The notes: generated by a model from the letters alone, not told the origin. A stretch of 64,000 nucleotides of DNA from Nanobdellota archaeon (GCA_021807085.1 JAKAPM010000003.1:2014-66013), one strand, 5' to 3'. Positions 4,394 to 51,420 are shown, counted from the stretch's first letter. Made by a program: numbers and translations.

Positions 4394-4633
4394 CTACTTT
4401 ACTTTGTTCAGTACTATTGTGGTATCTGTCTTGCCCACACCCTTTTCTCTCCTGAGCTCGGATACTACAAAGTTCGACAGCTCGTCCATGTTTTCGTACC
4501 CGAATCTTATCATGAGGTCCCATTGTCCGCTTATGAGAATTACTTCCTCGACACCCTTTATCTCTGCGACTCTTTTGGCTATCTCTATGACCGACTTTCC
4601 TTCTTCTATCTCTGCGAAAATTAGGGCTTCCAT
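4394..4633 (-). CDS. Stand-alone Lrp/AsnC-type RAM (ligand-binding) domain protein
   Basis: 79 aa with a beta-alpha-beta-beta-alpha-beta pattern matching the C-terminal regulatory domain of Lrp/AsnC regulators, with no HTH. Lies immediately upstream of radA on the same strand. Confidence 0.5.
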   Translation of the reverse strand: MEALIFAEIEEGKSVIEIAKRVAEIKGVEEVILISGQWDLMIRFGYENMDELSNFVVSELRREKGVGKTDTTIVLNKVK

Positions 4634-4726
4634 ACTAGATTATACTTTATGATAGTAGTCTGGATATTTAATGTTTTACGCGGTAAATGCTCTTTGTCGT
4701 TTATCCACCACACCACTGCAAAACCA

Positions 4727-5425
4727 CTATTCCTCTTTTGCTATTGCCTGCATGCATTCACTGTAGTATGGGCAGTATTTACATTGCCAGACGGTCTTAT
4801 CGTCGAAATAGTATTCAGCTGGCGGTAATTTCTTGTTTCTTAAGTGGTAATCTAAGTCTTTGAACCTGTTAACTATCTTCTGGTAAACCCCACTGTCGTA
4901 ATCCACTCTGAACTGCCTTATATCAAGATTCTTCTTATCTGCATAGACTAAGATACCATAATCTGCCTTTTGGGCCGCAAGGTAGAGTGTTATCTGCATT
5001 ATGTGCTTAGGATCAGGTTCATTTACTTTGTGGACATCCCCACTAGATTTGGCTTCTATTATTATGGTCTTCCCCCCCTTCGTTACAACAAAATCGTCTA
5101 TCCTTCCATAGACGGCAAATGATGTGTCCTTGTCCGAATATTCTATCCTTATCGGTTTCTCTTCCTCCACAGTTTCTAGTCTCTCAGAGGCTTTCAGTGC
5201 CTTCGTTATAAACTCGTGGACATTGTTGCCCATTGCAAATATCCTCAGTGCTGATGCCTCTGTCGGCTTTGGTATATTATAAGAATAGTAGCTCCTTCTT
5301 ATGCACATCCCTATTTCACTTGGAAAGTATGCTCCCAACTTCTTAGGTCTCATCTCATCTGTAAGGTATTCATCAATTATGTCACCGACATTCAGATCGC
5401 TTTTTTCGTCGTGGTTTTGGATCAT
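4727..5425 (-). CDS. Cas4-like/RecB-family PD-(D/E)xK nuclease with 4-Cys Fe-S cluster motif (not CRISPR-associated here)
   Basis: 232 aa. One N-terminal Cys (GMCIRR) plus a C-terminal CKYCPYYSEC triad, the Cas4/AddB-type 4Fe-4S arrangement. PD-(D/E)xK core GRIDDFVV...IIIEAKSS. No cas genes or repeats nearby. Confidence 0.6.
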   Translation of the reverse strand: MIQNHDEKSDLNVGDIIDEYLTDEMRPKKLGAYFPSEIGMCIRRSYYSYNIPKPTEASALRIFAMGNNVHEFITKALKASERLETVEEEKPIRIEYSDKDTSFAVYGRIDDFVVTKGGKTIIIEAKSSGDVHKVNEPDPKHIMQITLYLAAQKADYGILVYADKKNLDIRQFRVDYDSGVYQKIVNRFKDLDYHLRNKKLPPAEYYFDDKTVWQCKYCPYYSECMQAIAKEE

Positions 5426-5477
5426 ATCTAATTTATAGCACGGAAAGTAATTTAAATGTGAATATTTTCATACTCTG

Positions 5478-6152
5478 ATGAGAGCTCTAGTCCTGTCGCT
5501 AGGGATAGCGTTCGTAGTGATATTCGTGCTACTGTTCCTGCTAGTGAATTATAATACCATCTACAAATGGGATGAATCCGCGTTCCTACTGATTAATTCC
5601 ACGTTCAATGTTTCGTATCTTAACGGCTTTTTTGCTGCCCTGTCTATTTACGGAAGGGAGTACTTTTGGGTGCCCGTAGTGATACTGTTGTGGCTGTTGG
5701 GCAAGGAGAACGGCAAGAAAACTGCACTTATGATGGTGATTGTATTCGTGCTTGTCATAATAATAGGGTTCGCCCTGAAAGATGTCTATTACAGGCCTAG
5801 ACCGTTCCTTTCTATTGTCAACGCGATAGTGCTGGTTCCAAAAGATTTTGATTCGTCCTTTCCTTCCGGCCACGCTCTTGTGGTGGCCGCGGGTGCCACC
5901 GTAGCGTTCCTTATGCTCAAGAAACGCTATTCTATACCTCTGCTGATCGAGGCTGCGCTGGTGATATACTCAAGAGTGTATGTTGGAGTGCACTACCCAA
6001 CAGACGTCGTTGCCGGGCTGTTTCTCGGAGCCGCCATTGCTCTAATAACTTACGCCCTTTTAGTCGATTCAAGGGTATTCAGGACGATTTCAGAGGCTTT
6101 GATTTCTATCTATAGTAAGGTTATCTCCACCGTTAGATTGAAACGTATCTGA
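5478..6152 (+). CDS. PAP2-family membrane phosphatase (phosphatidic acid phosphatase type 2 superfamily)
   Basis: 224 aa polytopic protein with PAP2 motifs KxxxxxxRP (YYRPRPF), PSGH (SFPSGHA) and SRxxxxxHxxxD (SRVYVGVHYPTDV). Confidence 0.75.
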   Translation: MRALVLSLGIAFVVIFVLLFLLVNYNTIYKWDESAFLLINSTFNVSYLNGFFAALSIYGREYFWVPVVILLWLLGKENGKKTALMMVIVFVLVIIIGFALKDVYYRPRPFLSIVNAIVLVPKDFDSSFPSGHALVVAAGATVAFLMLKKRYSIPLLIEAALVIYSRVYVGVHYPTDVVAGLFLGAAIALITYALLVDSRVFRTISEALISIYSKVISTVRLKRI

Positions 6153-31338: not shown

Positions 31339-31457
31339 TTAGTTTGATAAAAATGTATACTATTTAACTCTTTCTGTAGCTTCCAGTGTTGTATCCCGCC
31401 TGTGTAGAAAATCTAACTATTTGGCACAGATTTAAATTCCAGAAGCATCTAAACAGT

Positions 31458-33875
31458 ATGAAATCGCCCATCATCATACTTGTAGTTCTGCTGCTAGTTA
31501 GTGTGGGTACCGTCCACGCGTCTATAACTCTCAACATGAATGAAATCCCGCTGCAGGGACAGGCGTGCACCTTCCTGTCGCCCCAGCAACTGCAGACAGC
31601 CTACGGTTTCGGCCAACTCTATAGTTCCGGCATAAACGGTAACGGCCAGAGTGTAGCTATAATAGTGGCGTATGGAGACTCCAACCTCCAGGCCGACGTA
31701 AATGCGTTCGACTCGCAATACAGTTTGCCGTCGCTGTCCGTTGGATCAAACCTTATGGTGGTAACTCCGTTCGGAAAACCGCAAAGCAGTTTCACGAACT
31801 GGACGGCTGAGACTGCCCTAGACGTTGAGACTGTGCATTCGCTTGCGCCCGGAGCCAGGATATATGTAGTGGAAGCCCCAAACGAAAACTCTCTTTTCTC
31901 CGCGATAAACTATACTGTTAATAACCTGCCCGTAACTGTAATCTCCGTGAGCTGGGGAAGTTCTGAATCCAGCTACACCAGCAGCGACATAAGTTATCTC
32001 AACAGCGTATTATACAACGCGGAGCAGAAAGGAGTGAATATCTTCGTTGCTTCCGGTGATACAGGCGCTTATAACTCCCAAAGCTTCCCAAACGTCAATT
32101 TTCCCGCTTCCAGTCCGTACGTAGTGTCTGTGGGCGGCAGCACCCTCTCGGTGAGTTCTTCAGGCTCCTATCAGGGCGAAACCGCTTGGAACGGCAGCGG
32201 GGGCGGTAACAGCGAGTACTTCTACAGACCCCCTTTTCAGCCCGATCTCAACAGCTATAGGATGGTGCCTGACGTGGCTTTTAACGCTGGTACGCCTGTT
32301 TGCATAGAGTCCAACCTATCCATCAGGGGATATTACGGCACTAGTCTATCCGCCCCATCCTGGGCGGCAATAGACTCGCTGATAAACCAGAAGGTAAAGG
32401 GGGACAAAGCATTCCTGCTGCAGGAGCTCTACAAGACGTATTCCGACTACGGTTCGCTGGCATTCAACAGCATAACCAGCGGATGCAACGGCCTGTACTG
32501 CGCATCAAACAGTTATAACGAGGTCACAGGACTCGGATCGCCGAAGGTATACCAGCTTGTTCAAATAATATCCAAGGCCCAGTACAAGATAACGTTCGAT
32601 CCGTCAACGACCGATTCGGTTTTCAGCGTGAACGGCATCAATTACTCCTCAACTGTATCGCTAAACTTTACGTATGGACAGAAGGTGAGCATAATAGCGT
32701 ATTCTGGAAAAGTACCGGATGTAGGGGTGGTAAATTTCAGCTCGTTCTCCGGTATTGTTAACGCCGCTGACTCCGCAGTTGTGTTTTTCGTAAACACCTC
32801 CGGCATACTCAGCATCCATTTCAACGAGTATTTCATAGTATCCCTCAATGGTGTTATGGGTAATTCTACTTCGGCTTCGTTAATGAAGAACGGCAGTTCT
32901 CTCGACCTTACCTCTCCTTTGTACGTCAACTACAGCGGCGTGCAGTACACTTTAGTAGGTTTCACTATGAACGGCGGACCTGTGGTGTATTCCGGCGCTT
33001 ACAGTATAGATGTGTACGCACCGATGAATGTCAGTTTCGTTTGGCATAAGATTGCGAAGACGCCAATAGCTACCGAACCGATACCATCGCTGTTGGTTAC
33101 AGTTTCGTTCTATTCTTTTGCGCCTCTTTCAAACAAAATTACACATGAGTTGGCCACTCTATCTGGATCTTCCGGTGTGTTTGCTGTGAATGGAACAGAG
33201 ATAAGTGTTTACAGCAAACCGCAAGTAGTCTCGGGTTACAGGTACGAATTGGCGAATTTCACCACAGCCTCCGGGCAGCAAATAATAGTAAACTTCACGA
33301 AAGAAAAGTCTATAAACGTCAGTTTCTACTCCGAACAGGATGTGAGCATAGTTCCCAGCTCCCTACAGGTAGGTTTTGACGGGGTGAACGAAACTTACAT
33401 AAACAGCACCACCATATGGGGTCCGCTGTCTGGCGGTGTAACTATCGAGAGCGTCCTGTACAAAGGAGTAGAGATGCTGGATCAGCCAGTCCGCCTGTAC
33501 TCCAATTCCAGCGGGGCTAACCTTACGCTTCCTATAAGTGATGTTACAGTCCGGCTAGTAACATATTTCGGCATACCTGTGGTAGGGGCAGGAATCTACC
33601 TATCATTCGATAACATATCAATATATAACTCCACAAGTATTTCCGGCAGCACCACATTCTACAACATCCCCCAAAAACCATATAGCCTCAGAATAAACGC
33701 ATACGGTACAAAATATACGTTTAGTAATCTAGACACAGCATCGCTGGACTTGACTGTGTCCCCTATACTGTACCAGCTGTACATAATACTGGGACTCGTT
33801 CTGGTTGTGCTGTTGTCGCTGTTCCTGTTCGAGAGGCTGAAGCACCGCTCCAACAAGAGTCACAGTATTAAATAG
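31458..33875 (+). CDS. Sedolisin-like (peptidase S53) secreted serine-carboxyl protease with large glycosylated C-terminal region and C-terminal TM anchor
   Basis: About 805 aa from the MKSPIIILVVLLLVSVGTVHA signal peptide. The ORF extends upstream to 31386, but the signal peptide fixes the start at 31458. S53-type motifs: TAETALDVE (catalytic Glu/Asp), ASGDTGAY (oxyanion Asp), GTSLSAPSWAA (catalytic Ser). More than 30 NxS/T sequons and a C-terminal TM ILGLVLVVLLSLFLF. Confidence 0.75.
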   Translation: MKSPIIILVVLLLVSVGTVHASITLNMNEIPLQGQACTFLSPQQLQTAYGFGQLYSSGINGNGQSVAIIVAYGDSNLQADVNAFDSQYSLPSLSVGSNLMVVTPFGKPQSSFTNWTAETALDVETVHSLAPGARIYVVEAPNENSLFSAINYTVNNLPVTVISVSWGSSESSYTSSDISYLNSVLYNAEQKGVNIFVASGDTGAYNSQSFPNVNFPASSPYVVSVGGSTLSVSSSGSYQGETAWNGSGGGNSEYFYRPPFQPDLNSYRMVPDVAFNAGTPVCIESNLSIRGYYGTSLSAPSWAAIDSLINQKVKGDKAFLLQELYKTYSDYGSLAFNSITSGCNGLYCASNSYNEVTGLGSPKVYQLVQIISKAQYKITFDPSTTDSVFSVNGINYSSTVSLNFTYGQKVSIIAYSGKVPDVGVVNFSSFSGIVNAADSAVVFFVNTSGILSIHFNEYFIVSLNGVMGNSTSASLMKNGSSLDLTSPLYVNYSGVQYTLVGFTMNGGPVVYSGAYSIDVYAPMNVSFVWHKIAKTPIATEPIPSLLVTVSFYSFAPLSNKITHELATLSGSSGVFAVNGTEISVYSKPQVVSGYRYELANFTTASGQQIIVNFTKEKSINVSFYSEQDVSIVPSSLQVGFDGVNETYINSTTIWGPLSGGVTIESVLYKGVEMLDQPVRLYSNSSGANLTLPISDVTVRLVTYFGIPVVGAGIYLSFDNISIYNSTSISGSTTFYNIPQKPYSLRINAYGTKYTFSNLDTASLDLTVSPILYQLYIILGLVLVVLLSLFLFERLKHRSNKSHSIK

Positions 33876-33903
33876 AAAACTGCTAGATAATAATTATTGA
33901 ACT

Positions 33904-36144
33904 ATGGAGAACAGGGCTAAAGACTATACCTTGTCTAGGGAAGAAGGGGAAATAGTCCTTACATACAAAGTGGATTTGAACATCCTCTACCCAAATCCCG
34001 AAGACAACGAGGCCATTTTCGAGAAGATAGTTGACGCGATACTCGAATCTGGAAACATAACATCCCTGATAATAGCAAGCGACAGGAACTATATCTACAC
34101 CAAAAACGAGGTGGAGCTCTTCAACAATCTCGCCGACGTATACAGGCAAATATTGGAATCCGACTTGGTTGTACAGTTCGGAGTGGATGCCCAGAGAGAA
34201 TTTCCAGGCGCCATATCCTCCTTCAACTACGTGGTGTTCAACAGGCTGAAGAGGGACCCGATAGGCGCGTATGTTTTCGCCGTCAGGGCCGAGAGGGAGA
34301 TAAGGGTGATGGCGGAGGGCAATAAATCAGAGGAACTCGGTTCTATAGTGCAGCGCTTTTCCAAGCTGCTCGAAGCGCTCTCGTCCGCAGAAATAATAAA
34401 GAGGAGCGCCAGTTACCTCCTCGGCTACAAGATAGGCGACAGAACGCCGTACAGGTCTTTGCTGAAGCCTTTGATACGCCCTAATTTCACGTACACTCGC
34501 ATAATGTCCGAGCCCCCTATGTCGGCAGTAGAGGTGGATACATACAAAATAGCCGACGCAGACCAGACAGAAGTCACAATATACAAGATTCCAGGAATAT
34601 CGCAATATCTGTACCACTTGTCACCACCAGAACTGCTTCTCAACGTGGACGAATACAACGTTCTGGACCAAGTTAGGACAAATTTGATAAACTACAGGCC
34701 CCAAGAGGAGGAATTTACCGATCCTGTCAGGATGAGGGACGTGTTTTTCAACCTCGCGAAGGACATGATAATAGACATAAGTGGCAAAAACAAGTACAAC
34801 ATAGGCTTCAAAGACGTGGAAAAACTTGCCAGGATACTGGTTAGGCTGACTGTAGGTTTTGGGATAACCGAAGTCATACTGTCGGATTCAAAAGTTGAAG
34901 ATGTTTATCTGAATTCCCCCATAAGCCACTCACCACTGTTCGTGAAGCACGGAACCTACGGCGAGTGCGCGTCCAACATAATTCCGAATGCCAAGGAAGT
35001 GGATGCATGGGCATCGCGCTTCAGATTGATGTCTGGCAGGGCGCTCGATGAGGGACACCCCGTCCTGGATACGGAGCTTATAACCGGGCTGTTGAGGGCC
35101 AGAGTGGCAATTTCTCAGAAGCCTCTTTCTCCGTTCGGCCTGAGTGTAGCGTTCAGGCGCCATAGGGATAATCCTTGGACTATTCCACTTTTCATAAACA
35201 ACGGTATGGTGTCCCCGTTCGCTGCCGGTTTGCTCTGGTTCTGCGTAGAAGGCGCCAGGACACTTCTGATAAGCGGCACCAGGGGCGCTGGAAAAACATC
35301 GTTCTTGACTGCCCTGATGCTTCTCCTCATGAAGAGATACAGGATAATAACAGTGGAGGACACGCTGGAGATACCTACCGACGCGTTCACCAATCTCGGC
35401 TACGATATCTTGTCGCTGAAAGTCCAGAGCGCTATAACCGGCGAAAAATCTGAAATGACGGCGGAAGAGGGCATACGAACTACCCTTAGGCTGGGAGATA
35501 GCTCTCTAGTCGTAGGGGAGGTCAGGAGTACTGAGGCTAAGGCGCTGTATGAGGCTATGCGCGTGGGGGCGCTTTCTAACGTCGTTCTCGGTACAATACA
35601 CGGCGAGAACGCGTACGGTGTGTTCGATAGAATAGTCAACGACCTAGGCGTGCCGAGGACAAGTTTCAAGGCAACTGATCTTATCATATCCATCAACAAG
35701 ATAAAGACAGAAGATAGACTAATCGAGAGGAGACGGGTGCTAAATATAACAGAAGTCAGGAAGGACTGGACAGACGATCCGCTATACGAGAATGGGTTCG
35801 TGGACCTTGTCAAATACGACATAAGGAAAGACATACTATTGCCGTCAGACGACCTCTTGGAAGGAAACAGCGCGGTAGTTAAACAGATTGCCTCAAACGT
35901 CAAGGACTGGGCCGGAAACTGGGACGCGGTTCTGGACAACATAAACGCCAGGGCAGACATATTTAAAATGATCGTGGAACATTCCAAGAGGAAGGGGGAC
36001 AACTCGTTCCTCGAGGCAGAATTTTCGGTCTCAGCGATAGACCAATATTATGATATAGTTAACAAGCTCAAGGAGGAGTACGGTTCGGCCGAAAGGTCCG
36101 GAATAATCAAGGCGTTTGACTTATGGCTAAGAGAACAAAAATAG
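33904..36144 (+). CDS. Type IV pilus/archaellum-type secretion ATPase (FlaI/TadA/GspE family) with long N-terminal extension
   Basis: 746 aa. Walker A GTRGAGKTS; Asp-box/Walker B region LVVGEVRSTEA; His-box GTIHGEN. About 420 aa precede the Walker A, longer than in typical FlaI. Confidence 0.8.
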   Translation: MENRAKDYTLSREEGEIVLTYKVDLNILYPNPEDNEAIFEKIVDAILESGNITSLIIASDRNYIYTKNEVELFNNLADVYRQILESDLVVQFGVDAQREFPGAISSFNYVVFNRLKRDPIGAYVFAVRAEREIRVMAEGNKSEELGSIVQRFSKLLEALSSAEIIKRSASYLLGYKIGDRTPYRSLLKPLIRPNFTYTRIMSEPPMSAVEVDTYKIADADQTEVTIYKIPGISQYLYHLSPPELLLNVDEYNVLDQVRTNLINYRPQEEEFTDPVRMRDVFFNLAKDMIIDISGKNKYNIGFKDVEKLARILVRLTVGFGITEVILSDSKVEDVYLNSPISHSPLFVKHGTYGECASNIIPNAKEVDAWASRFRLMSGRALDEGHPVLDTELITGLLRARVAISQKPLSPFGLSVAFRRHRDNPWTIPLFINNGMVSPFAAGLLWFCVEGARTLLISGTRGAGKTSFLTALMLLLMKRYRIITVEDTLEIPTDAFTNLGYDILSLKVQSAITGEKSEMTAEEGIRTTLRLGDSSLVVGEVRSTEAKALYEAMRVGALSNVVLGTIHGENAYGVFDRIVNDLGVPRTSFKATDLIISINKIKTEDRLIERRRVLNITEVRKDWTDDPLYENGFVDLVKYDIRKDILLPSDDLLEGNSAVVKQIASNVKDWAGNWDAVLDNINARADIFKMIVEHSKRKGDNSFLEAEFSVSAIDQYYDIVNKLKEEYGSAERSGIIKAFDLWLREQK

Positions 36145-38252
36145 AGAAAGTTCCGGAGCAGGACAACTCCCGGAAAGACAACATAGATTTCGCCTACAAC
36201 TACTATGAACCTGGGGATATAGTGTCACAGGATATGTACACGAAAGATCAGAAGGTAAGGGAAGACCTGAAATCTTTGGAGTACAAAATATTCAAGGAGA
36301 AGAACCAGACCTTTCTGTCCAAAATCGTAGTTTTCGGCGCTGGCACGATAGGTAAGGCGATAAAGTTTAACATAAACAAAGACGAGGAGCGCAAATTAAA
36401 CACAATACTCTACTTACTCGGGTATAATTTTGACGCCAAGCAGCTGTATGGCTTCTCCATCTTCACGTTAGTACTAGGTTTTCTCCTAGGCCTTCTACTG
36501 ATACTCATAAGACAGTTCATGTTCGGCATAATCGCCATATTCTTGGGGATAATCGCACTTTTCGGCGTGCAGTATTTTCCGAAGCAACAGATGGCAGTCA
36601 GGATGAGCAAGGCTTCTGGAGACCTGGTCACTACTATACTGTATATAGTGATATTCATGAGGCAGACGCCGAACCTTGAAGGAGCCGTGCAGTTCGCATC
36701 CGACAACCTGAACAGCTATATCGCCTTCGATTTGAAGAAACTCATATGGGACACTGCCGCCAGAAAATACGCCAACATAAAGGAAGCTCTCGACGACTAT
36801 TCAAAGAAGTGGATGAAGACTAGCCCGGCTTTCACCGACGCAATATTCCTTATAGAGAGCTCAGTCTCGCAGGAGGAAGAGTCGAGGAGGTTGGAACTTC
36901 TTGATGAGGCATCAGATAGGATACTGTCGGGCACATACAATTCTATGACGAAGTACGCCTCGTCTCTAAAAGAGCCGCTGAATACGATATACATGCTGGG
37001 TATGGTGCTGCCTGTTCTGGGCCTGGTGCTGGCGCCAATGCTGATGGCTTTCGTGGCCATACCAGATTTCGGCGTCCTACTCGCACTAATGTACGATATA
37101 GCGCTACCGCTGCTGGTTTATTTTCTGATTAGGACTAAACTTCTGACAAGACCGAGCGGTTTCGGCGCTCCGGACCTCAGCAATATACCTAACCTTCCAA
37201 AACTCGGGACGTTTAACATAAAGCTTGGCTCTAGGAAGGTACCTATAAACGCACTCATACCCGCTGCAGCGGTCTTCGCGCTATTTATGGTACCCGTCTA
37301 TTTCCTGTCCCCGTATCTCTCGGTGTTCGGGCCCAATCAGATATACATATCTATGTTTATAACCGCCGGGATAGGCTTTTCCCTTTTTGTCTACTTCAAA
37401 CTTTCTGTAGTGCAGCTGAGAGAGAGCGAGGAGGAACTTGTCAATATAGAATCCTCGTTCGGCGTAGCTCTCTCCCAGATGGGCTCTTTCTTGGCGCAGG
37501 GTTACCCTGCGGAGACCACTATAATAAAGGTTAGCGACAACATGAAGAATACGCCAGTGGCCTCCTTTTTCCAAATAACAGTCAACAATATGCGGAAGCT
37601 AGGCATGTCCCTGCGCGACGCGTTTTTCAACAAAATAAACGGCTCGGTTAGGTTCTTCCCTTCGCCGATGATAATCTCGGCGACTCGGATATTCATAGGC
37701 TCCGCTGAGAAGAGCGTCGGAAACGCCGCATCCGCCGCCATGTACGTGTCAAAGCATCTTTCCAATCTGAAGAAGATAGAGGAACAGGTGCGTTCCCTCT
37801 TGGAAGAGGTTACTTCTGGTATGAGGGTTGAGGTCGGTCTGCTGAGTCCTGCGATGGCCGGCATTGTGGTGGGACTTACCACCCTTATAGGAACCGTGCT
37901 TAGGTCACTCTCTGGCAGTATAAGCGCCATACAGACGGGTGTATCGAGTACATCGGCTCCTGGAGGTATCTCCTCTGTCGTGCCCTTTGCTTTCGGTCTT
38001 TTTAACCTTAGTGGCGGTGCCATCCCGCTATACACTTTCCAGATAATAATAGGGATTTACCTGGTCTCGCTGGCTTCAATAATAGGCTACGCGATATCTA
38101 CTATATCGCAGCCAGGCGATAGAATACTAATGAGGGAGACCATCGCCTCTATGCTGCTGATGTCAATGATATTGTACGTGCTGATAACCTTTATAGTCAC
38201 CCTAGTTTTCTCATCAGTCGGTGGACTAGTGATAAGCGCCACTCATATCTAG
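36123..38252 (+). CDS. Type IV pilus assembly polytopic membrane platform protein (FlaJ/TadC/T2SS-F-like)
   Basis: 709 aa. Two blocks of TM helices separated by cytoplasmic helical regions, as in the duplicated T2SS-F architecture. Overlaps the ATPase gene by 22 nt; the call rests mainly on topology and context. Confidence 0.5.
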   Translation: MAKRTKIEKVPEQDNSRKDNIDFAYNYYEPGDIVSQDMYTKDQKVREDLKSLEYKIFKEKNQTFLSKIVVFGAGTIGKAIKFNINKDEERKLNTILYLLGYNFDAKQLYGFSIFTLVLGFLLGLLLILIRQFMFGIIAIFLGIIALFGVQYFPKQQMAVRMSKASGDLVTTILYIVIFMRQTPNLEGAVQFASDNLNSYIAFDLKKLIWDTAARKYANIKEALDDYSKKWMKTSPAFTDAIFLIESSVSQEEESRRLELLDEASDRILSGTYNSMTKYASSLKEPLNTIYMLGMVLPVLGLVLAPMLMAFVAIPDFGVLLALMYDIALPLLVYFLIRTKLLTRPSGFGAPDLSNIPNLPKLGTFNIKLGSRKVPINALIPAAAVFALFMVPVYFLSPYLSVFGPNQIYISMFITAGIGFSLFVYFKLSVVQLRESEEELVNIESSFGVALSQMGSFLAQGYPAETTIIKVSDNMKNTPVASFFQITVNNMRKLGMSLRDAFFNKINGSVRFFPSPMIISATRIFIGSAEKSVGNAASAAMYVSKHLSNLKKIEEQVRSLLEEVTSGMRVEVGLLSPAMAGIVVGLTTLIGTVLRSLSGSISAIQTGVSSTSAPGGISSVVPFAFGLFNLSGGAIPLYTFQIIIGIYLVSLASIIGYAISTISQPGDRILMRETIASMLLMSMILYVLITFIVTLVFSSVGGLVISATHI

Positions 38253-47143: not shown

Positions 47144-49198
47144 TTACACCTCTAACGATTTCAACAAAAGTTCTATGTCTGTAGTGGACTTACCTTCTTT
47201 GTCAGAAATGTTGAGAGTGAGGGGTGGTTTTATGCCTCTGGCGGAGAGCCGGCTCTCGAAAACATCAGGATCTTCGCATTGGTAGAAGATCCCTGTATGC
47301 ATATTATCCGGATTCTCGCTGAGCAACATCTTAAGCGCTCCTAGCTTCTTATCGTCTACCTCATTCTTATCCGATGGGTTCTTAACCATACCATCATATT
47401 CCTGCGGCAGCGGTTTGAGGTGCTGGTTGAACCACGCGGCGGACGTGAATTCCGGGTTATAAGTAGGACATCCCTGCATTATGTCGACCAGAGCAAGGCC
47501 TTTGTGCTTTATCGCCGCTATCATAACATCTGACATCTCTTTCACCTTGAAGCTCTGCGTCCTCGCAACGAAAGTGTAACCCGCCATTATCGCTAGCGAC
47601 AGGGGATTAAGTGCACCATTTATGTTCGGAGCGGGGAGGGATTTGGTTTTTCTCCCTTCTGGTAGCGTTGGACTTGCCTGGCCTTTCGTGAGCGAGTAAA
47701 CGCCGTTATCGTGCACGAACAATTTTATGTCAACGTTCCTTCTGCCAGCGCTTATGAAATGCCCGACACCTATACCATACGTGTCACCGTCACCACTGTC
47801 TATGAGCACATTTAGATCTGGATTTGCGAGTTTTATCCCCTCTGCAAACGGTATAGCTCTTCCGTGGAGAGTGTGCACGCCGTTGACATTAACAAGATGA
47901 GGCAGCTTGGAGGAACATCCTATCCCGGAAACTATTACTGTCTTGTTGGGATCCAGTCCGGCTTCCACTATCGCGGTCTTAACACCGAGGACTATCCCCG
48001 AGTCACCGCAGTTATGCAGCGTCGCTGAATTGCTTACATAAGAATTTACATCCTCAACTTCGAAGTTGTAAACCGGACCGTTGTAATAGAAACTGTCCAA
48101 GCTTCTTATCCTGAGGTACAAATAACTATCATCTCGGAATGACATAAAGTGCGCTGCATCGGAAATTTTTGCTTCTTCCGATTTTATCCCAAATAATTTT
48201 ATAAGTCCATTGTAGTGGCTGTTTTTTACTTCGATAGAATAAGACTCTTTGTGGATCCCATAAGATTTATTTTTGTATACATACGGAACTATGGACTGCC
48301 TTAGTAAGAGCATCTTTATCTGCTCTTTTAGAACAGGTGAAATTGTCTTGTATCCCGTCCTCAATTTTTGAGTATTGATGAATCCATCACCTCTCCACAA
48401 TCCTACTAGTAGGTGTATCTGCTTTTTCGGGGGCAGCAGCACAAGATTGTGCGGAATTCTTTTCTCCGCAGCGCAGTCACCGAACCATTCCAAAAATATC
48501 TCTGATAGATATGATGAACTTACATGCACTTCTATAGAGCCTTTTTTTGCCGATCTGTCCTTTATAGTAGCAGCCAATCCGAATACTTTGGAGAAAAGTT
48601 TCTTCGCATCTTCAGCGAGTTCTTGTTCAGTTTTTCCAAACGTTAGTACTATCTCTCTTTCATGTACATTTCCTTCTGCTATGTAATAGCCTGCCAGTTT
48701 AAGAAAATCGCTGTCAACCTTTATTTCTGCGGGCAGCGATTTGCTTCGTGTATCCTTCTTTTTCTTTTTGTATGCTATCGAAAGTGTATCGATGTCTATT
48801 TCGGCCTTCATCACAGGGTAAGCGACATAGTCCCCAACGTTTAACTTCTCGGCTTCGACCCATTCTGTTTTGATAGAGCCTCTAGCAACGTTCTCTTTTC
48901 TTACAATCAGCGCTGGGTGTTCATTCGTTAGAGTAGTCTCACCGAAGTAGGCAGTATTAAGTCGGTATATCCTTCCTTTGTGTATATGAGTCATGACTTC
49001 GTCTATTCTGTGAAAGTACCCATCGCTTCCAAGAACTTTATCTCCTACTTTAAACGCCTGTATCGCTTTTGCCGAAGGATTTCCTATTATTATATTGTCG
49101 GGGAGCAGGCAGCCAGGACACCAGTCGTTGAATTCGTTCGATGTGAGACTGGACACTGTCGTCTGTTTTTTCAACCGGTCATCGCTTTCAGTAGGCAT
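47144..49198 (-). CDS. korB: 2-oxoacid:ferredoxin oxidoreductase beta subunit (KorB/OorB, TPP-binding) interrupted by an in-frame intein
   Basis: 684 aa precursor. Exteins (29 + 288 aa) rejoin to WCPG/CGDSGIVLG..., the canonical KorB N-terminal CPGCG motif. Also GDGDTYGIG (TPP-binding GDG) and GCPTYNPE. The intein occupies residues 30-396. Confidence 0.85.
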   Translation of the reverse strand: MPTESDDRLKKQTTVSSLTSNEFNDWCPGCLLPDNIIIGNPSAKAIQAFKVGDKVLGSDGYFHRIDEVMTHIHKGRIYRLNTAYFGETTLTNEHPALIVRKENVARGSIKTEWVEAEKLNVGDYVAYPVMKAEIDIDTLSIAYKKKKKDTRSKSLPAEIKVDSDFLKLAGYYIAEGNVHEREIVLTFGKTEQELAEDAKKLFSKVFGLAATIKDRSAKKGSIEVHVSSSYLSEIFLEWFGDCAAEKRIPHNLVLLPPKKQIHLLVGLWRGDGFINTQKLRTGYKTISPVLKEQIKMLLLRQSIVPYVYKNKSYGIHKESYSIEVKNSHYNGLIKLFGIKSEEAKISDAAHFMSFRDDSYLYLRIRSLDSFYYNGPVYNFEVEDVNSYVSNSATLHNCGDSGIVLGVKTAIVEAGLDPNKTVIVSGIGCSSKLPHLVNVNGVHTLHGRAIPFAEGIKLANPDLNVLIDSGDGDTYGIGVGHFISAGRRNVDIKLFVHDNGVYSLTKGQASPTLPEGRKTKSLPAPNINGALNPLSLAIMAGYTFVARTQSFKVKEMSDVMIAAIKHKGLALVDIMQGCPTYNPEFTSAAWFNQHLKPLPQEYDGMVKNPSDKNEVDDKKLGALKMLLSENPDNMHTGIFYQCEDPDVFESRLSARGIKPPLTLNISDKEGKSTTDIELLLKSLEV
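48011..49111 (-). mobile_element. Full-length intein with LAGLIDADG homing-endonuclease domain inside korB
   Basis: 367 aa. Block A CLLPDNIIIG (Cys1); block B LTNEHPAL (TxxH); LAGLIDADG motifs LKLAGYYIAEGNV and LLVGLWRGDGFI; block F/G VYNFEVEDVNSYVSNSATLHN, then the +1 Cys of the extein CGDSG. Codon boundaries were checked by reverse complement: residues 396/397 = N/C at 48013-48008. Confidence 0.85.
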
Positions 49199-51041
49199 TT
49201 AGTATCACCTTATGTTCTCCCTTCTTTATCTTGTCTATAGCGTCGGATACCTCGTCGTATCTTATCAATCTTCCGTTGTACTTTAGTATCTCGTTGGGTA
49301 TCACGAATCCGCTCTCTGATGCGATGTGTTGTTTTAGCTGTGCAGATATGTTCTCTTCTAGGATGACCGTGTTTTTTGCTTTTCTCAAGATATCCGGAAC
49401 TTCTTTCGGCAGCGGATGTATCAGTTTTATCTGGAGTATCGCAACGTTATCTTTGCCATTAATGGCGTCTATAGCCGCGGCGGAAGGGCTACCCCACGTG
49501 ACAAGTAGCAAATCAGCTCCGTCCGTATCGCCGATGATTCTGAATTTTTCTTCTGGTTTTAGTTCGCTGAGTATCTTGTCGTATTTCCCGTTTCTTTTCT
49601 GCATCATCTTTATTCTGTTGTTGGGCTCTTCAGATACATGTCCCCACTCGTCGTGTTCGTCTCCGGTCATCCAGAAAATTGCGTCTGGGTTGCCTGGAAT
49701 TATCCTTGGGGATATATTATCATCTGTAAATTCGAACCTCTTGTAAGAACCGTCCGTTTTGTATATGAGTTTTCCCCTATCGACTCTGTATCTATCCTTT
49801 ATGTCGAGTATTGTCTTCTTGTCCATATTCATGGAGCCTTGCGATATCGCTTTCTCGCCAAGCACAATTACTGGCAACTGATACTTCTCCGCGTAGTTGA
49901 ACGCATTTGCAGTCATCTCTATCGATTCTTCGACGTCTCCAGGCGCTATTATCATCCTACCGAAGTCGCCGTGTCCTTGGTGTACAGCAAACATCAGATC
50001 GCTCTGTTCCGTTCTGGTCGGCTGCCCTGTAGCCGGTGCACCTCTCTGGTGGTCGACAAGCACCACGGGCACCTCGTTCATTCCCGCCCACGTGACTGTT
50101 TCTGCCATCAACGACATGCCTGGTCCCGACGTTGAGCTGGACGCCCTGACTCCAGCTATGCTTGCACCAACCGTCATTGCGAAGACCGCTAGTTCACTCT
50201 CCGGCTGTATCACCCTTATCCCTAGCTCCGGATGCGATTCTATGAATACACTCTCGTCACTGGCCGGTGTTATCGGATAGTATATTTGCATTTTGCACCC
50301 AGCTATGGCCTTCCCTATGGCTGTAGACGTGAAACCCTCCATGTATATCTGTGATTCTTTGCCGGACTTCTCAAGATTCAGGGCCGGCTGCAGACCCCTC
50401 GACTTTATGTGGTTTATCGTCTCGTTCACAACAGCTTCGTTCCTGCCCTTTAAGTAGTCGATGGTGCCCTCTGAAACCGATATGTCCAAATCTATTACGC
50501 TCTTCGGTTTTTTCGCGAACTCGCTTATTATTGCGTCGGCTATCGTGCTTTCATCAAATCCCAAAAGATACGCAGAGGCGGATACGCAGACTATATTCTT
50601 GGCTATCATCACCTCGCTTGTAGGTTTGTCGAATTTCTTCGCGACTTTGCTTATTATAGAATCGAAATCTATGTCCAGGATGGTTATGTCCTTTCTGTCT
50701 ATCCTGCTCTTGTCTACCTTGCTGTCGATTATCAATACGCCCCCCTCCTTTACGTCCCTGACATGGCCTTCATGGACTGTATCGCCTCTTTCGTTCTTCT
50801 CCCCCAGCACCGATTCGCTGTCGGAAAATATTGCCATGTCCACTCTGCTTGGTATGGAAGCTATCTTATTTTCTGAGACTCTGACGGTAAAGAAACTGTG
50901 CATACCCTTTATGTTGGAGAAATATTCCCTGTAGCCGTATATGTTGTAGCCGAACTTCATCATCACTCTTGAGAAAAGGCCGAGAGCTGCGTCGATGCCG
51001 CTACCTTGTTTTCCCCCCGTCATCCAAGTGAGCTCTACCAT
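49188..51041 (-). CDS. korA: 2-oxoacid:ferredoxin oxidoreductase alpha subunit (fused gamma-alpha type)
   Basis: 617 aa, the size and domain order of the Sulfolobus/Thermoplasma-type two-subunit 2-oxoacid:ferredoxin oxidoreductase alpha. Overlaps korB by 11 nt. Confidence 0.8.
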   Translation of the reverse strand: MVELTWMTGGKQGSGIDAALGLFSRVMMKFGYNIYGYREYFSNIKGMHSFFTVRVSENKIASIPSRVDMAIFSDSESVLGEKNERGDTVHEGHVRDVKEGGVLIIDSKVDKSRIDRKDITILDIDFDSIISKVAKKFDKPTSEVMIAKNIVCVSASAYLLGFDESTIADAIISEFAKKPKSVIDLDISVSEGTIDYLKGRNEAVVNETINHIKSRGLQPALNLEKSGKESQIYMEGFTSTAIGKAIAGCKMQIYYPITPASDESVFIESHPELGIRVIQPESELAVFAMTVGASIAGVRASSSTSGPGMSLMAETVTWAGMNEVPVVLVDHQRGAPATGQPTRTEQSDLMFAVHQGHGDFGRMIIAPGDVEESIEMTANAFNYAEKYQLPVIVLGEKAISQGSMNMDKKTILDIKDRYRVDRGKLIYKTDGSYKRFEFTDDNISPRIIPGNPDAIFWMTGDEHDEWGHVSEEPNNRIKMMQKRNGKYDKILSELKPEEKFRIIGDTDGADLLLVTWGSPSAAAIDAINGKDNVAILQIKLIHPLPKEVPDILRKAKNTVILEENISAQLKQHIASESGFVIPNEILKYNGRLIRYDEVSDAIDKIKKGEHKVILNAY

Positions 51042-51060: not shown

Positions 51061-51420
51061 TTATAGATTGTCGTTTATCCATTTCTGCAGCGGCTCTTTC
51101 TGCATAGCGCCGACAATGCTGGATTTTACCTTGCCGCTCTTCATGAGAAGGGTGGTAGGTATCGCTTCCACACCATATTTAGCGGCTATCTCCTGATTTT
51201 CATCTACGTTTATCTTTACTAGCTTTATCTTGTCTTTCATCCCTTCCGACACTTCCTCTATTATCGGCGAGTACCATCGGCAAGGCATGCACCAGGGCGC
51301 CCACAGGTCCACCAGGACGGGAACTTTTGATTCCAGAACTTCGCTCTTGAATTTGTCTTCACCACTGACGTCTACGCTCATATTATTTTTACCCCCGATG
51401 AAAATATGTGAGATCATCAC
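51061..51420 (-). CDS. trx: Thioredoxin
   Basis: 119 aa. Active site WAPWCMPCR (CxxC) and a cis-Pro region (AIPT). An alternative start at Met14 would give ~106 aa. Confidence 0.8.
   Translation of the reverse strand: MMISHIFIGGKNNMSVDVSGEDKFKSEVLESKVPVLVDLWAPWCMPCRWYSPIIEEVSEGMKDKIKLVKINVDENQEIAAKYGVEAIPTTLLMKSGKVKSSIVGAMQKEPLQKWINDNL

What the first reader, a model, noticed from the sequence alone, without database searches (positions are those of the whole stretch)
47144..49198. Full-size LAGLIDADG intein inserted in the conserved WCPG/CG motif of 2-oxoacid:ferredoxin oxidoreductase beta subunit (korB)
The 684-aa korB ORF is roughly twice the normal ~300-320 aa. Residues 30-396 carry the intein splicing blocks A, B, F and G (listed in the intein feature) plus both LAGLIDADG motifs, and are followed by the +1 Cys. 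Removing them rejoins WCPG to CGDSGIVLG, restoring the KorB N-terminal Cys motif. I do not recall an intein in this metabolic enzyme among the classical catalogues, so it may be a new insertion site. The insertion point is a highly conserved site of a central TCA/ferredoxin enzyme, as is typical for inteins.
Basis: seen in the sequence. Interest (0 to 1): 0.8.

Follow-up and report, generated by a model that had tools for sequence, protein, structure and literature searches.

The report
Intein splitting an iron-sulfur enzyme motif
The beta subunit gene of a 2-oxoacid:ferredoxin oxidoreductase is interrupted by a real, intact self-splicing intein with a homing endonuclease, placed inside the Cys-x-Gly-Cys motif that holds the enzyme's iron-sulfur cluster; the same intein is common in public genomes, but I found no paper that describes it.

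Summary
ORF 47144..49198(-) encodes 684 aa. Residues 30-396 (window 48011..49111) are a 367-aa class-1 intein: Cys1, TxxH, two LAGLIDADG motifs with their acidic residues, and His-Asn followed by Cys+1.

- **Extein:** removing the intein gives a 317-aa protein that aligns without a gap across the junction with the crystallised Sulfolobus tokodaii OFOR beta subunit (NDWCPG|CG).
- **Fold:** an AlphaFold model (pLDDT 93) best matches endonuclease-bearing VMA inteins.
- **Empty alleles:** intein-free alleles (82% identical extein, same gene order) exist in the closest relatives, which carry Parvarchaeota (ARMAN-type) labels.
- **Not unique:** more than 100 protein clusters carry a homologous intein at exactly this site. 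They come from Parvarchaeota (ARMAN-4/5, deposited 2010), Nitrososphaerota, Aenigmatarchaeota, Micrarchaeota, Chloroflexota, Bipolaricaulota and CPR bacteria.
- **Mobility:** one copy is 68% identical as intein but only 44% as extein, which indicates horizontal transfer.
- **Literature:** none of the papers I could search describes an intein in this enzyme.

The +1 Cys is a [4Fe-4S] ligand. The precursor junction reads Cys-Pro-Gly-Cys1, the motif engineered elsewhere as an intein "redox trap"; whether it gates splicing here is untested.

Verdict: a new member of a known kind, of moderate interest.

The parts
47144..49198 (-). Precursor gene for the 2-oxoacid:ferredoxin oxidoreductase beta subunit (684 aa including the intein). 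Its start overlaps the end of the alpha-subunit gene by 11 nt.
   Evidence: ORF. Pfam TPP_enzyme_C and PFO_beta_C, NCBIfam TIGR02177 at 308 bits against a cut-off of 262. Coordinates checked.
49112..49198 (-). N-extein, aa 1-29, ending NDWCPG. Cys27 is the first Cys of the CxGC cluster-ligating motif and sits at position -3 relative to the intein.
   Evidence: Translation. Alignment to 5b48_B, where Cys12b-Cys15b form the CXGC motif.
48011..49111 (-). Intein, aa 30-396 (367 aa): the N-terminal and C-terminal halves of the Hint splicing domain flank a double-motif LAGLIDADG endonuclease domain.
   Evidence: AlphaFold model with pLDDT 93.2. Foldseek top hits are the TliVMA, PI-SceI, PI-PkoII and PI-PfuI inteins. 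GC is 40.2% against 49.0% for the extein, the lowest-GC 1.1 kb of the window.
49109..49120 (-). N-terminal splice junction, reading Cys27-Pro-Gly | Cys30 (intein Cys1). This is a CPGC motif that spans the junction.
   Evidence: The engineered intein 'redox trap' uses the same CPGC motif (PMC10772547; PMC3922620).
48917..48928 (-). Intein block B, TNEH (Thr91 and His94; intein T62 and H65).
   Evidence: Both residues are invariant in the alignment of 16 OFOR-beta inteins.
48143..48727 (-). Homing endonuclease domain (approximately intein residues 129-323).
   Evidence: Secondary structure of the model. Foldseek matches to I-DmoI and I-Tsp061I over this part. Pfam LAGLIDADG_3.
48671..48697 (-). 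LAGLIDADG motif 1, LAGYYIAEG. The acidic residue Glu175 is present.
   Evidence: Some homologues have Lys at this position (IAKG), which probably marks an inactivated endonuclease.
48383..48409 (-). LAGLIDADG motif 2, LVGLWRGDG. The acidic residue Asp271 is present.
   Evidence: G-D-G is invariant in the alignment. Coordinates checked.
48008..48016 (-). C-terminal splice junction: His395-Asn396 | Cys397. Cys397 is the +1 nucleophile and corresponds to cluster ligand Cys15b.
   Evidence: TIGR01443 intein_Cterm covers aa 375-397 and passes its cut-off. Asn and Cys+1 are invariant. Searches give the ligand role.
47144..48010 (-). C-extein, aa 397-684 plus the stop codon. It holds the TPP-binding domain and the two other cysteines that are conserved with the S. 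tokodaii enzyme (GIGCS, CPTYN) and that I infer to be cluster ligands.
   Evidence: NCBIfam NF041171 matches aa 396-681. Alignment to 5b48_B, E=1.4e-93.
49188..51041 (-). Partner alpha subunit gene (617 aa, POR and POR_N domains). Together with the thioredoxin gene upstream and the citrate synthase gene downstream it forms the conserved gene order around the beta-subunit gene.
   Evidence: Pfam. The same gene order occurs at the intein-free locus L083.

Best explanation
This is a genuine, intact class-1 intein that carries a LAGLIDADG homing endonuclease. It is inserted in frame between Gly29 and the second cysteine of the Cys-Pro-Gly-Cys motif of an (alpha-beta)-type 2-oxoacid:ferredoxin oxidoreductase beta subunit.

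How it most likely works. This mechanism is inferred from established intein chemistry and was not assayed here:
1. The 684-aa precursor is translated.
2. Cys30 (intein Cys1) performs the N-S acyl shift.
3. Cys397 (+1) attacks the thioester by trans-thioesterification.
4. Asn396 cyclises and releases the 367-aa intein.
5. An S-N shift joins ...NDWCPG to CGDSG..., giving a 317-aa beta subunit.

Only this spliced protein has the contiguous CxGC loop that ligates the single [4Fe-4S] cluster and lines the ferredoxin docking site. Splicing is therefore required for enzyme activity.

At the DNA level the element is, or recently was, mobile. Its endonuclease is expected to cut intein-free alleles at the TGG TGY CCN GGN | TGY GGN GAY site, and repair then copies the intein in. 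This accounts for the patchy presence within Parvarchaeota and for the spread of the element across archaeal and bacterial phyla.
For: Anatomy:
- All splicing residues are present, and Cys1, T62, H65, N367 and Cys+1 are invariant across 16 diverse homologues.
- Domain matches: LAGLIDADG_3 8.6e-14, Intein_splicing 3.6e-8, TIGR01443 above its cut-off.
- Sequence matches to the solved inteins PI-PkoII and TliVMA.

Fold:
- AlphaFold model with pLDDT 93.2 and pTM 0.91.
- Foldseek against the PDB: TliVMA intein 7qsu, E=2e-22, TM 0.77; then PI-SceI, PI-PkoII and PI-PfuI. The endonuclease part matches I-DmoI.

Host:
- The spliced extein aligns without a gap through the junction to S. tokodaii OFOR2 beta, 5b48_B, E=1.4e-93.
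- Cys12b-Cys15b of that enzyme are the CXGC motif that ligates the cluster (PMC5020499).

Empty alleles:
- P0190 to P0198 and others are 307-319 aa, 71-82% identical to the spliced extein, and read NEFNDWCPGCGDSGIV.
- P0190 lies in the same thioredoxin / alpha subunit / beta subunit / citrate synthase gene order.
- Its junction DNA is 45/60 identical to the window's spliced junction.

Same site elsewhere:
- Of the 120 best hits, all but four carry an intein at this exact position; those four did not match my junction pattern, and one of them (P0009) starts inside the intein.
- 49 of the 80 loci kept from species-representative genomes also do, spanning at least 10 phylum labels.

Mobility:
- L005 is 68% identical as intein but only 44% as extein, whereas Parvarchaeota orthologues are 62-74% as intein and 78-82% as extein.
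- Endonuclease-inactivated variants (IAKG, GGG) and a 158-aa mini-intein occur in close relatives, the pattern expected from a homing cycle.
- The intein is the lowest-GC 1.1 kb of the window: 40.2% against a mean of 46.6%, and only 0.2% of windows are as low.

Not an assembly artefact: the identical protein occurs on 5 contigs from independent sources.
Against: - No experiment shows splicing or DNA cleavage. Both are inferred.
- The Pfam Intein_splicing score of 33.8 bits is just below the gathering cut-off of 35.8.
- The block F position that is often Asp is Asn here (VYNFEV). I recall that this Asp is not universal in class-1 inteins, but I did not check.
- The organism labels of the metagenome-assembled genomes, including the 'Thermoplasmata' label on L005, were not verified. 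The transfer argument rests on the intein/extein identity discordance alone.
- Intein identity across phyla (40-52%) is about equal to extein identity (37-50%). Long vertical inheritance with strong constraint could explain part of that, rather than repeated transfer.
Confidence: 0.9

Rival explanations
1. The intein gates splicing by redox state. The precursor junction Cys27(-3)-Pro-Gly-Cys30(Cys1) forms a disulfide under oxidising conditions and blocks the first splicing step. The oxygen-sensitive Fe-S/TPP enzyme is then completed only in a reducing cytoplasm, and the intein is retained because it acts as a post-translational switch. This is an addition to the best explanation, not an alternative identity.
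For: - The junction reads exactly CPGC.
- The engineered intein redox trap was made by placing CPG before the catalytic Cys to create CPGC (PMC10772547).
- A native Cys-3/Cys1 disulfide controls the Pyrococcus abyssi MoaA intein (PMC3922620).
- Cys-3 is present in every OFOR-beta intein precursor examined.
- A related intein sits in the CAT|C motif of thioredoxin-reductase-like proteins, with the same -3 geometry.
- A thioredoxin gene lies directly upstream of the alpha-subunit gene.
Against: - Cys-3 is conserved because it is an Fe-S ligand of the host enzyme, so its presence says nothing about selection for a trap.
- The thioredoxin neighbour is also present at the intein-free locus L083.
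- Intein-free alleles are common in close relatives, so the intein is dispensable.
- There are no redox data.
Confidence: 0.18
2. The intein is a fixed, vertically inherited passenger. It still splices, but its endonuclease no longer homes; the wide distribution reflects an ancient insertion followed by many losses.
For: - Intein and extein identities between phyla are similar.
- Several homologues have lost endonuclease catalytic residues or the whole domain.
Against: - In the window copy both catalytic acidic residues, Glu175 and Asp271, are intact, and the endonuclease domain is strongly conserved, with G-D-G, K217, P220 and R271 invariant.
- L005 shows 68% intein identity on a 44% extein background.
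- The GC content of the intein departs from that of its host gene.
- Empty and occupied alleles are interleaved among the closest relatives.
Confidence: 0.3
3. The intein is a splicing-dead remnant, so the gene is effectively a pseudogene or encodes an inactive beta subunit.
For: - Pfam Intein_splicing is just under its threshold.
- There is no experimental evidence of splicing.
Against: - The 684-codon frame is uninterrupted, and every nucleophile and assisting residue is conserved.
- The extein is 78-82% identical to orthologues and keeps the Cys ligands and the TPP motif.
- The gene is translationally coupled to an intact alpha-subunit gene within a cluster of TCA-cycle genes.
Confidence: 0.04
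4. Residues 30-396 are not an intein but an ordinary lineage-specific insertion domain, or the product of an assembly chimera.
For: None beyond the unusual length of the protein.
Against: - Orthologues 82% identical lack the insert exactly at the codon boundary.
- The model has a Hint plus LAGLIDADG fold.
- The identical precursor occurs in independent assemblies, and there are hundreds of homologues.
Confidence: 0.01

Closest known systems
Archaeal endonuclease-bearing class-1 inteins with solved structures: Thermococcus litoralis and Pyrococcus horikoshii VMA inteins (7qss, 7qsu, 7qst), PI-PkoII (2cw7), PI-PfuI (1dq3), PI-SceI (1vde)
   Same: - Cys1 ... His-Asn | Cys+1 chemistry.
- A Hint domain split by a double-motif LAGLIDADG endonuclease.
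- Similar size (about 365 aa).
- Insertion in the most conserved site of an essential enzyme.
- Best fold matches: E=2e-22, TM 0.77 to 7qsu. Weak but significant sequence matches.
   Different: - Only 14-19% sequence identity.
- The host is a TPP/[4Fe-4S] central-metabolism enzyme rather than an ATPase, polymerase or other replication or nucleotide-metabolism protein. Those classes dominate published intein surveys: COG categories L and F cover roughly 75-83% of intein-containing proteins (PMC4760082).
The same intein allele in other genomes, for example Ca. Parvarchaeum ARMAN-5 EFD92679.1, ARMAN-4 EEZ92817.1 and Ca. Nitrosotenuis uzonensis CDI05254.1
   Same: - Identical insertion point (WCPG|CGD).
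- Homologous intein: 62-74% identity within Parvarchaeota and 40-52% across phyla.
- The same architecture.
   Different: - The window copy is a distinct sequence, at most 76% identical over the precursor.
- Public records name these proteins only 'pyruvate ferredoxin/flavodoxin oxidoreductase beta', 'thiamine pyrophosphate-dependent enzyme' or 'hypothetical protein'. None of the names I saw mentions an intein.
Engineered CPGC 'redox trap' inteins (Ssp/Npu DnaE; Callahan et al. 2011 and 2013) and the native Cys-3/Cys1 disulfide of the Pyrococcus abyssi MoaA intein
   Same: A cysteine at extein position -3 followed by Pro-Gly and the catalytic Cys1. The precursor here carries exactly CPGC across the N-terminal junction.
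   Different: Here the motif comes ready-made from the host's Fe-S ligand motif. Redox control of splicing has not been tested, so the resemblance is a lead and not a finding.
Mycobacterium tuberculosis SufB intein (an intein in the Fe-S cluster assembly machinery, reported as a sensor of oxidative and nitrosative stress; PMC4547236, cited)
   Same: An intein that interrupts a protein of iron-sulfur metabolism and uses cysteine nucleophiles sensitive to oxidation.
   Different: A different host protein and site, and no detected homology. Here the intein splits the cluster-binding motif of an Fe-S enzyme itself. The nearest out-of-host relatives of this intein do sit in IscU/NifU-type scaffolds.

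Membership tests
Class-1 (canonical) intein | Cys or Ser nucleophile as the first intein residue (block A) | tested here: met
   Cys30 follows NDWCPG. It is invariant in 16 homologues.
Class-1 (canonical) intein | Block B TxxH motif | tested here: met
   T91-N-E-H94. T62 and H65 (intein numbering) are invariant.
Class-1 (canonical) intein | C-terminal His-Asn followed by a Cys, Ser or Thr at +1 (block G) | tested here: met
   H395-N396 | C397. TIGR01443 scores 18.8 bits against a cut-off of 15.6.
Class-1 (canonical) intein | Hint (horseshoe beta) fold of the splicing domain | tested here: met
   AlphaFold model with pLDDT 93.2. Foldseek top hits are all inteins, with TM 0.77 to 7qsu.
Class-1 (canonical) intein | In-frame insertion whose removal restores a colinear host protein, with intein-free alleles among homologues | tested here: met
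   Gap-free alignment to 5b48_B across the junction. Intein-free alleles P0190 to P0198 are up to 82% identical and share the gene order.
Class-1 (canonical) intein | Autocatalytic protein splicing demonstrated | not testable with these tools
   Needs expression of the precursor, or detection of the junction peptide by proteomics.
Pfam PF14890 Intein_splicing | Score at or above the gathering threshold (35.8 bits) | tested here: not met
   33.8 bits, E=3.6e-8. The match is split by the endonuclease insert. The precomputed domain list for the identical protein in the protein collection, made with PF14890.12, does include the domain.
LAGLIDADG homing endonuclease (single-chain, two-motif) | Two LAGLIDADG motifs, each ending in a catalytic Asp or Glu | tested here: met
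   LAGYYIAE175G and LVGLWRGD271G. PF14528 E=8.6e-14.
LAGLIDADG homing endonuclease (single-chain, two-motif) | Fold of a single-chain, two-motif LAGLIDADG endonuclease | tested here: met
   Foldseek matches to I-DmoI and I-Tsp061I, with target TM 0.64-0.70.
LAGLIDADG homing endonuclease (single-chain, two-motif) | Site-specific cleavage of the intein-free allele, and homing | not testable with these tools
   Indirect evidence only: patchy distribution, the discordance at L005 (68% intein, 44% extein), and the GC departure.
2-oxoacid:ferredoxin oxidoreductase beta subunit (two-subunit, single-cluster type) | TPP-binding domain plus the PFO_beta_C domain; family model above its cut-off | tested here: met
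   PF02775 2.3e-26 and PF12367 1.7e-6. TIGR02177 scores 308.3 bits against 261.9. The equivalog NF041171 scores 336 bits against a cut-off of 423 because the N-terminal part is split off by the intein.
2-oxoacid:ferredoxin oxidoreductase beta subunit (two-subunit, single-cluster type) | CxGC motif that ligates the proximal [4Fe-4S] cluster, plus two other conserved cysteines | tested here: met
   After splicing the protein reads WCPGCG. The GIGCS and CPTYN cysteines are identical in the alignment to 5b48_B. The role of the CXGC motif is from PMC5020499; the ligand role of the other two cysteines is my inference.
2-oxoacid:ferredoxin oxidoreductase beta subunit (two-subunit, single-cluster type) | Adjacent alpha subunit gene | tested here: met
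   ORF 49188..51041(-) has POR and POR_N domains and overlaps the beta-subunit start by 11 nt.
KorB in the strict sense (2-oxoglutarate-specific) | Substrate specificity for 2-oxoglutarate | not testable with these tools
   The gene neighbours (citrate synthase, succinate dehydrogenase/fumarate reductase-type flavoprotein and Fe-S subunit genes) suggest a TCA-cycle role. The closest solved relative uses both pyruvate and 2-oxoglutarate.

The most novel reading that the evidence does not exclude
The OFOR-beta intein is a natural redox-gated switch. By inserting before the second Cys of the host's Cys-Pro-Gly-Cys cluster motif, it recreates the CPGC motif (Cys-3 ... Cys1) that was engineered in the laboratory as an intein redox trap. 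Maturation of an oxygen-sensitive, low-potential Fe-S enzyme would then be licensed only under reducing conditions. It would also belong to a wider, unrecognised group of related inteins that target cysteine-motif sites of redox and Fe-S proteins: OFOR-beta CPG|C, IscU GNPV|CGD and thioredoxin-reductase-like CAT|C.
Probability: 0.15. Interest if true: 0.75.

Novelty: new member of a known kind. Interest (0 to 1): 0.45.

Why it matters
- **Unusual host class.** Published intein surveys stress a strong bias toward replication, repair and nucleotide-metabolism proteins, mostly ATPases (PMC4760082). This intein family is widespread across both domains and sits in a central carbon-metabolism enzyme. 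Its nearest relatives are in IscU-type scaffolds, acetyl-CoA-synthetase-like and thioredoxin-reductase-like proteins. All of these lie outside that bias and are apparently missing from the literature and from curated naming models.
- **Annotation.** Pipelines label these proteins 'thiamine pyrophosphate-dependent enzyme' or 'hypothetical protein'. An intein-aware model, like the NCBIfam exception model for the intein-containing tetraether lipid synthase Tes, would fix hundreds of records and improve metabolic reconstructions of DPANN archaea, ammonia-oxidising archaea and CPR bacteria.
- **Mechanism.** The +1 nucleophile doubles as an Fe-S ligand and the junction forms a ready-made CPGC motif. 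This gives a natural, directly testable case for conditional, redox-dependent protein splicing that controls an Fe-S enzyme.
- **Tools.** The family offers a set of new inteins that already accept a Pro-Gly / Cys-Gly-Asp extein context.

Tried and rejected
- **Literature.** Nine full-text searches (intein with ferredoxin oxidoreductase, oxoacid, oxoglutarate plus archaea, Parvarchaeum, Thaumarchaeota plus oxidoreductase, DPANN and Nitroso-, plus one to locate the Novikova survey and one on the CPGC redox trap) found no description of an OFOR/Kor/Por intein. The main text of the Novikova et al. 2016 survey has no mention of ferredoxin, oxoacid, pyruvate, COG1013, Thaumarchaeota or Parvarchaeota, and its supplements are not held. 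The two Callahan redox-trap papers (PMC3087850, PMC3718494) are not held, so I cited secondary sources. Absence applies to this library only.
- **Other inteins in the window.** The other long ORFs (829, 746, 709 and 576 aa) and the neighbours have no Hint or LAGLIDADG match.
- **Homologue search with the spliced extein.** It listed intein-free alleles and the mini-intein protein but not the full-length intein homologues. I therefore did not compute an occupied-to-empty ratio from it.
- **Third homologue search.** I considered using it to verify the Thermoplasmata label of L005. I did not, because the transfer argument rests on identity discordance and not on the label.
- **Rejected readings.** An ordinary insertion domain, an assembly chimera, and a bacterial intein-like or Hedgehog-type Hint domain. 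The last is excluded by the His-Asn|Cys terminus, the precise restoration of the extein and the empty alleles.
Full report
**1. The observation**

The ORF listing returns an ATG-initiated ORF at 47144..49198 on the minus strand, 684 aa. Translation and dissection give:
- an N-extein of 29 residues ending NDWCPG (window 49112..49198);
- a 367-residue insert, CLLPDN...ATLHN (aa 30-396, window 48011..49111);
- a C-extein beginning CGDSGIVLG (aa 397-684).

Joining the flanks gives a 317-aa protein.

**2. Is it an intein?**

- Pfam finds LAGLIDADG_3 (8.6e-14) and Intein_splicing (3.6e-8). The latter scores 33.8 bits, marginally below its 35.8-bit gathering cut-off. Weak Hint matches also appear. 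The flanks match TPP_enzyme_C and PFO_beta_C.
- NCBIfam places aa 396-681 in the archaeal 2-oxoacid:ferredoxin oxidoreductase beta equivalog and in TIGR02177 (308 bits against a cut-off of 262).
- The insert matches the intein-bearing parts of several 'intein-containing' NCBIfam models, and TIGR01443 (intein C-terminal splicing region) is above its cut-off.
- Against PDB sequences the insert hits PI-PkoII and a V-ATPase intein.
- An AlphaFold2 model built on an alignment of 16 homologous inserts is confident (mean pLDDT 93.2, pTM 0.91).
- Foldseek against the PDB returns only endonuclease-bearing inteins at the top: TliVMA 7qsu (E=2e-22, TM 0.77), PI-SceI, PI-PkoII, PI-PfuI and PhoVMA. Free-standing LAGLIDADG enzymes such as I-DmoI follow, matching the central domain.

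**3. Is the host restored by excision?**

- The spliced 317-aa sequence aligns to the Sulfolobus tokodaii OFOR2 beta subunit (5b48_B) at E=1.4e-93 with no gap through the junction: query nefNDWCPGCGdsGIv against pqWNDWCPGCGnfGIl.
- The intein therefore sits between the Gly and the second Cys of that motif. Its +1 nucleophile, Cys397, is the equivalent of ligand Cys15b.
- Inference: the unspliced precursor cannot form the native cluster site, so splicing is obligatory for activity.

**4. Intein-free alleles**

- A search with the spliced extein finds many proteins of 307-319 aa that are 71-82% identical and read ...NEFNDWCPGCGDSGIVLAVKN..., several labelled Parvarchaeota.
- One of them, P0190, lies in the same gene order as in the window: thioredoxin, alpha subunit, beta subunit, citrate synthase.
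- Its DNA across the empty site is 45/60 identical to the window's reconstructed junction. The differences are mostly at third codon positions.

**5. It is not unique**

- The full precursor retrieves 633 significant hits. The best 120 are nearly all 650-720-aa OFOR-beta proteins with precomputed intein and LAGLIDADG domains.
- A pattern scan finds the insert at the identical WCPG|C...HN|CGD position in all but four of the 120 best hits. Those four did not match the pattern, and one of them (P0009) starts inside the intein.
- Named members include Ca. Parvarchaeum ARMAN-5 (EFD92679.1) and ARMAN-4 (EEZ92817.1), Ca. Nitrosotenuis uzonensis, Nitrosocaldus, Aenigmarchaeota, and Chloroflexota/Limnocylindria.
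- A scan of species-representative genomes with the intein alignment kept 80 loci. By their flanks, 49 are OFOR-beta inteins. The records carry labels of Parvarchaeota/Nanoarchaeota, Nitrososphaerota, Aenigmatarchaeota, Micrarchaeota, Bathyarchaeota, Chloroflexota, Bipolaricaulota, Levyibacteriota, Saccharimonadales, Fraserbacteria and Thermotogae.
Its protein is 70-76% identical to the ARMAN-4/5 precursors.
- The identical protein occurs on five contigs from independent sources, so it is not an assembly artefact.

**6. Evidence of mobility**

- Within Parvarchaeota-type genes the intein diverges faster than the extein (62-74% against 78-82% identity).
- Locus L005, a genome bin labelled Thermoplasmata, has an intein 68% identical to the window's on an extein only 44% identical. 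That is best explained by recent horizontal transfer of the intein between distant OFOR genes.
- Close relatives also show the other stages expected from a homing cycle: empty alleles, full-length copies with a Lys replacing the catalytic Glu (IAKG) or with GGG replacing GDG, and a 158-aa mini-intein lacking the endonuclease (P0047; 34% and 46% identical to the two Hint halves).
- The window copy keeps both acidic residues, Glu175 and Asp271.
- Its GC content (40.2%; GC3 40.6%) departs from the extein (49.0%; GC3 54.4%). It is the lowest-GC 1.1-kb stretch of the whole window; only 0.2% of sliding windows are as low.

**7. Mechanism**

- *Shown:* the anatomy, the fold, the host restoration and the population pattern.
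- *Inferred from established intein chemistry:* an N-S acyl shift at Gly29-Cys30; trans-thioesterification to Cys397; Asn396 cyclisation; an S-N shift giving NDWCPG-CGDSG; then assembly of the [4Fe-4S] cluster on Cys27, Cys397 and the two other conserved cysteines, which I infer to be the remaining ligands.
- *Inferred:* the endonuclease cleaves empty alleles around TGG TGY CCN GGN | TGY GGN GAY.

**8. A lead worth testing**

- Because the host motif is Cys-Pro-Gly-Cys, the precursor junction reads Cys27(-3)-Pro-Gly-Cys30(Cys1).
- This is exactly the CPGC motif that was engineered as an intein 'redox trap' (PMC10772547). A native Cys-3/Cys1 disulfide controls the P. abyssi MoaA intein (PMC3922620).
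- Redox-conditional maturation of an oxygen-sensitive Fe-S enzyme is therefore plausible.
- Two cautions apply. Cys-3 is conserved for host reasons, and the adjacent thioredoxin gene is also present at the empty locus. I rate this reading at about 15%.

**9. Relatives in other hosts**

- Scoring the intein against 1.84 billion representative proteins gives 5,776 hits at E<=1e-3 and 143 at E<=1e-30.
- Beyond OFOR-beta, the nearest relatives are inteins in NifU_N/IscU scaffolds (site GNPV|CGD, which shares the +1 to +3 residues Cys-Gly-Asp with OFOR), in AMP-binding/acetyl-CoA-synthetase-like enzymes (FW|CTADIGW), in thioredoxin-reductase-like flavoproteins (CAT|C, again inside a CxxC motif) and in a glycosyltransferase.

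**10. Novelty**

- The kind of element is textbook.
- The allele is abundant in databases and has been present since the 2010 ARMAN deposits.
- I found no paper that describes an intein in this enzyme, and no curated intein-aware family model matched. Source names for these proteins do not mention an intein.
- I file it as a new member of a known kind, at an insertion site that is apparently undescribed in the literature. Interest is moderate, and it would be higher if the redox-gating idea holds.

Noticed in passing
L045, L047, L049-L055, L057-L070, L072-L074, L079, L080; proteins P0311, P0314, P0319: The nearest relatives of this intein outside OFOR-beta (about 31-38% identity) are inserted in NifU_N/IscU-type Fe-S scaffold proteins at GNPV|CGDxM. 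This site is also immediately before a conserved cysteine, probably a cluster ligand, and shares the +1 to +3 residues Cys-Gly-Asp with the OFOR site. That hints at an ectopic jump between similar target half-sites.
   Followed up: partly
L076, L077, L078; proteins P0337, P0342, P0345: Further related inteins sit in an acetyl-CoA-synthetase-like AMP-binding enzyme (DVFW|CTADIGW), in thioredoxin-reductase-like flavoproteins inside the redox-active CAT|C motif (Cys at -3 again), and in a group-1 glycosyltransferase. All are metabolic or redox hosts rather than replication proteins.
   Followed up: partly
L005 (JAJZXB010000007.1, labelled Thermoplasmata archaeon TL1-3.bin39) 3001-4101; protein P0009: The intein is 68% identical to the window's, but the surrounding OFOR-beta extein is only 44% identical. 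This is a candidate recent intein transfer between an ARMAN-type and a Thermoplasmata-type gene; a published co-culture pairs an ARMAN-2-related archaeon with Cuniculiplasma, a member of the Thermoplasmatales. The taxonomic label of the bin was not verified.
   Followed up: partly
L018, L028, L030, L033, L035, L038-L044; proteins P0073, P0089, P0100 and others: One clade of OFOR-beta inteins (N-terminus CVTGDTLV or CLLGETLV; labels Nitrososphaerales, Micrarchaeota, Bathyarchaeota, Saccharimonadales) ends in Ser-Gly-Asn or Ser-Ser-Asn instead of His-Asn. It lacks the penultimate His that normally assists Asn cyclisation.
   Followed up: no
L021 and L023 (both Limnocylindria isolate SMAG_U6255); L064 and L069 (both isolate SRP098346_co1_419): A single genome bin carries two separate intein-containing loci of the same kind: two OFOR-beta copies in one bin and two IscU-type copies in the other. 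This suggests paralogues that were each invaded, or mixed strains in the bin.
   Followed up: no
proteins P0086, P0046, P0107, P0095, P0113, P0133 (names listed): Annotation pipelines name intein-containing OFOR-beta proteins 'hypothetical protein' or 'thiamine pyrophosphate-dependent enzyme', while intein-free orthologues get the specific enzyme name. The intein pushes the equivalog model below its cut-off (336 against 423 bits for the window protein).
   Followed up: partly
window 51061..51420 (-): A thioredoxin gene lies directly upstream of the alpha/beta oxidoreductase genes. The arrangement is conserved at the intein-free locus L083.
   Followed up: partly
window about 4551..5651 (ORF 4727..5425, minus strand): This is the only other 1.1-kb stretch of the window with GC as low as the intein. 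It covers a 232-aa ORF ending in a Cys-rich motif (WQCKYCPYYSEC), which resembles a Cas4/RecB-type nuclease from memory, next to an intein-free 355-aa ORF (3316..4383) that looks like a RadA recombinase. Neither identity was tested.
   Followed up: no
window 31386..38252 (+): A cluster of three long ORFs: an S8 subtilase-like protein (829 aa), a T2SSE/secretion ATPase (746 aa) and a 709-aa protein with no Pfam match.
   Followed up: no
proteins P0309 (3308 aa), P0427 (4920 aa), P0327, P0371, P0404: Very long representative proteins match the intein in 3 to 8 separate stretches each. They may be giant proteins with several inteins, or fused gene calls.
   Followed up: no
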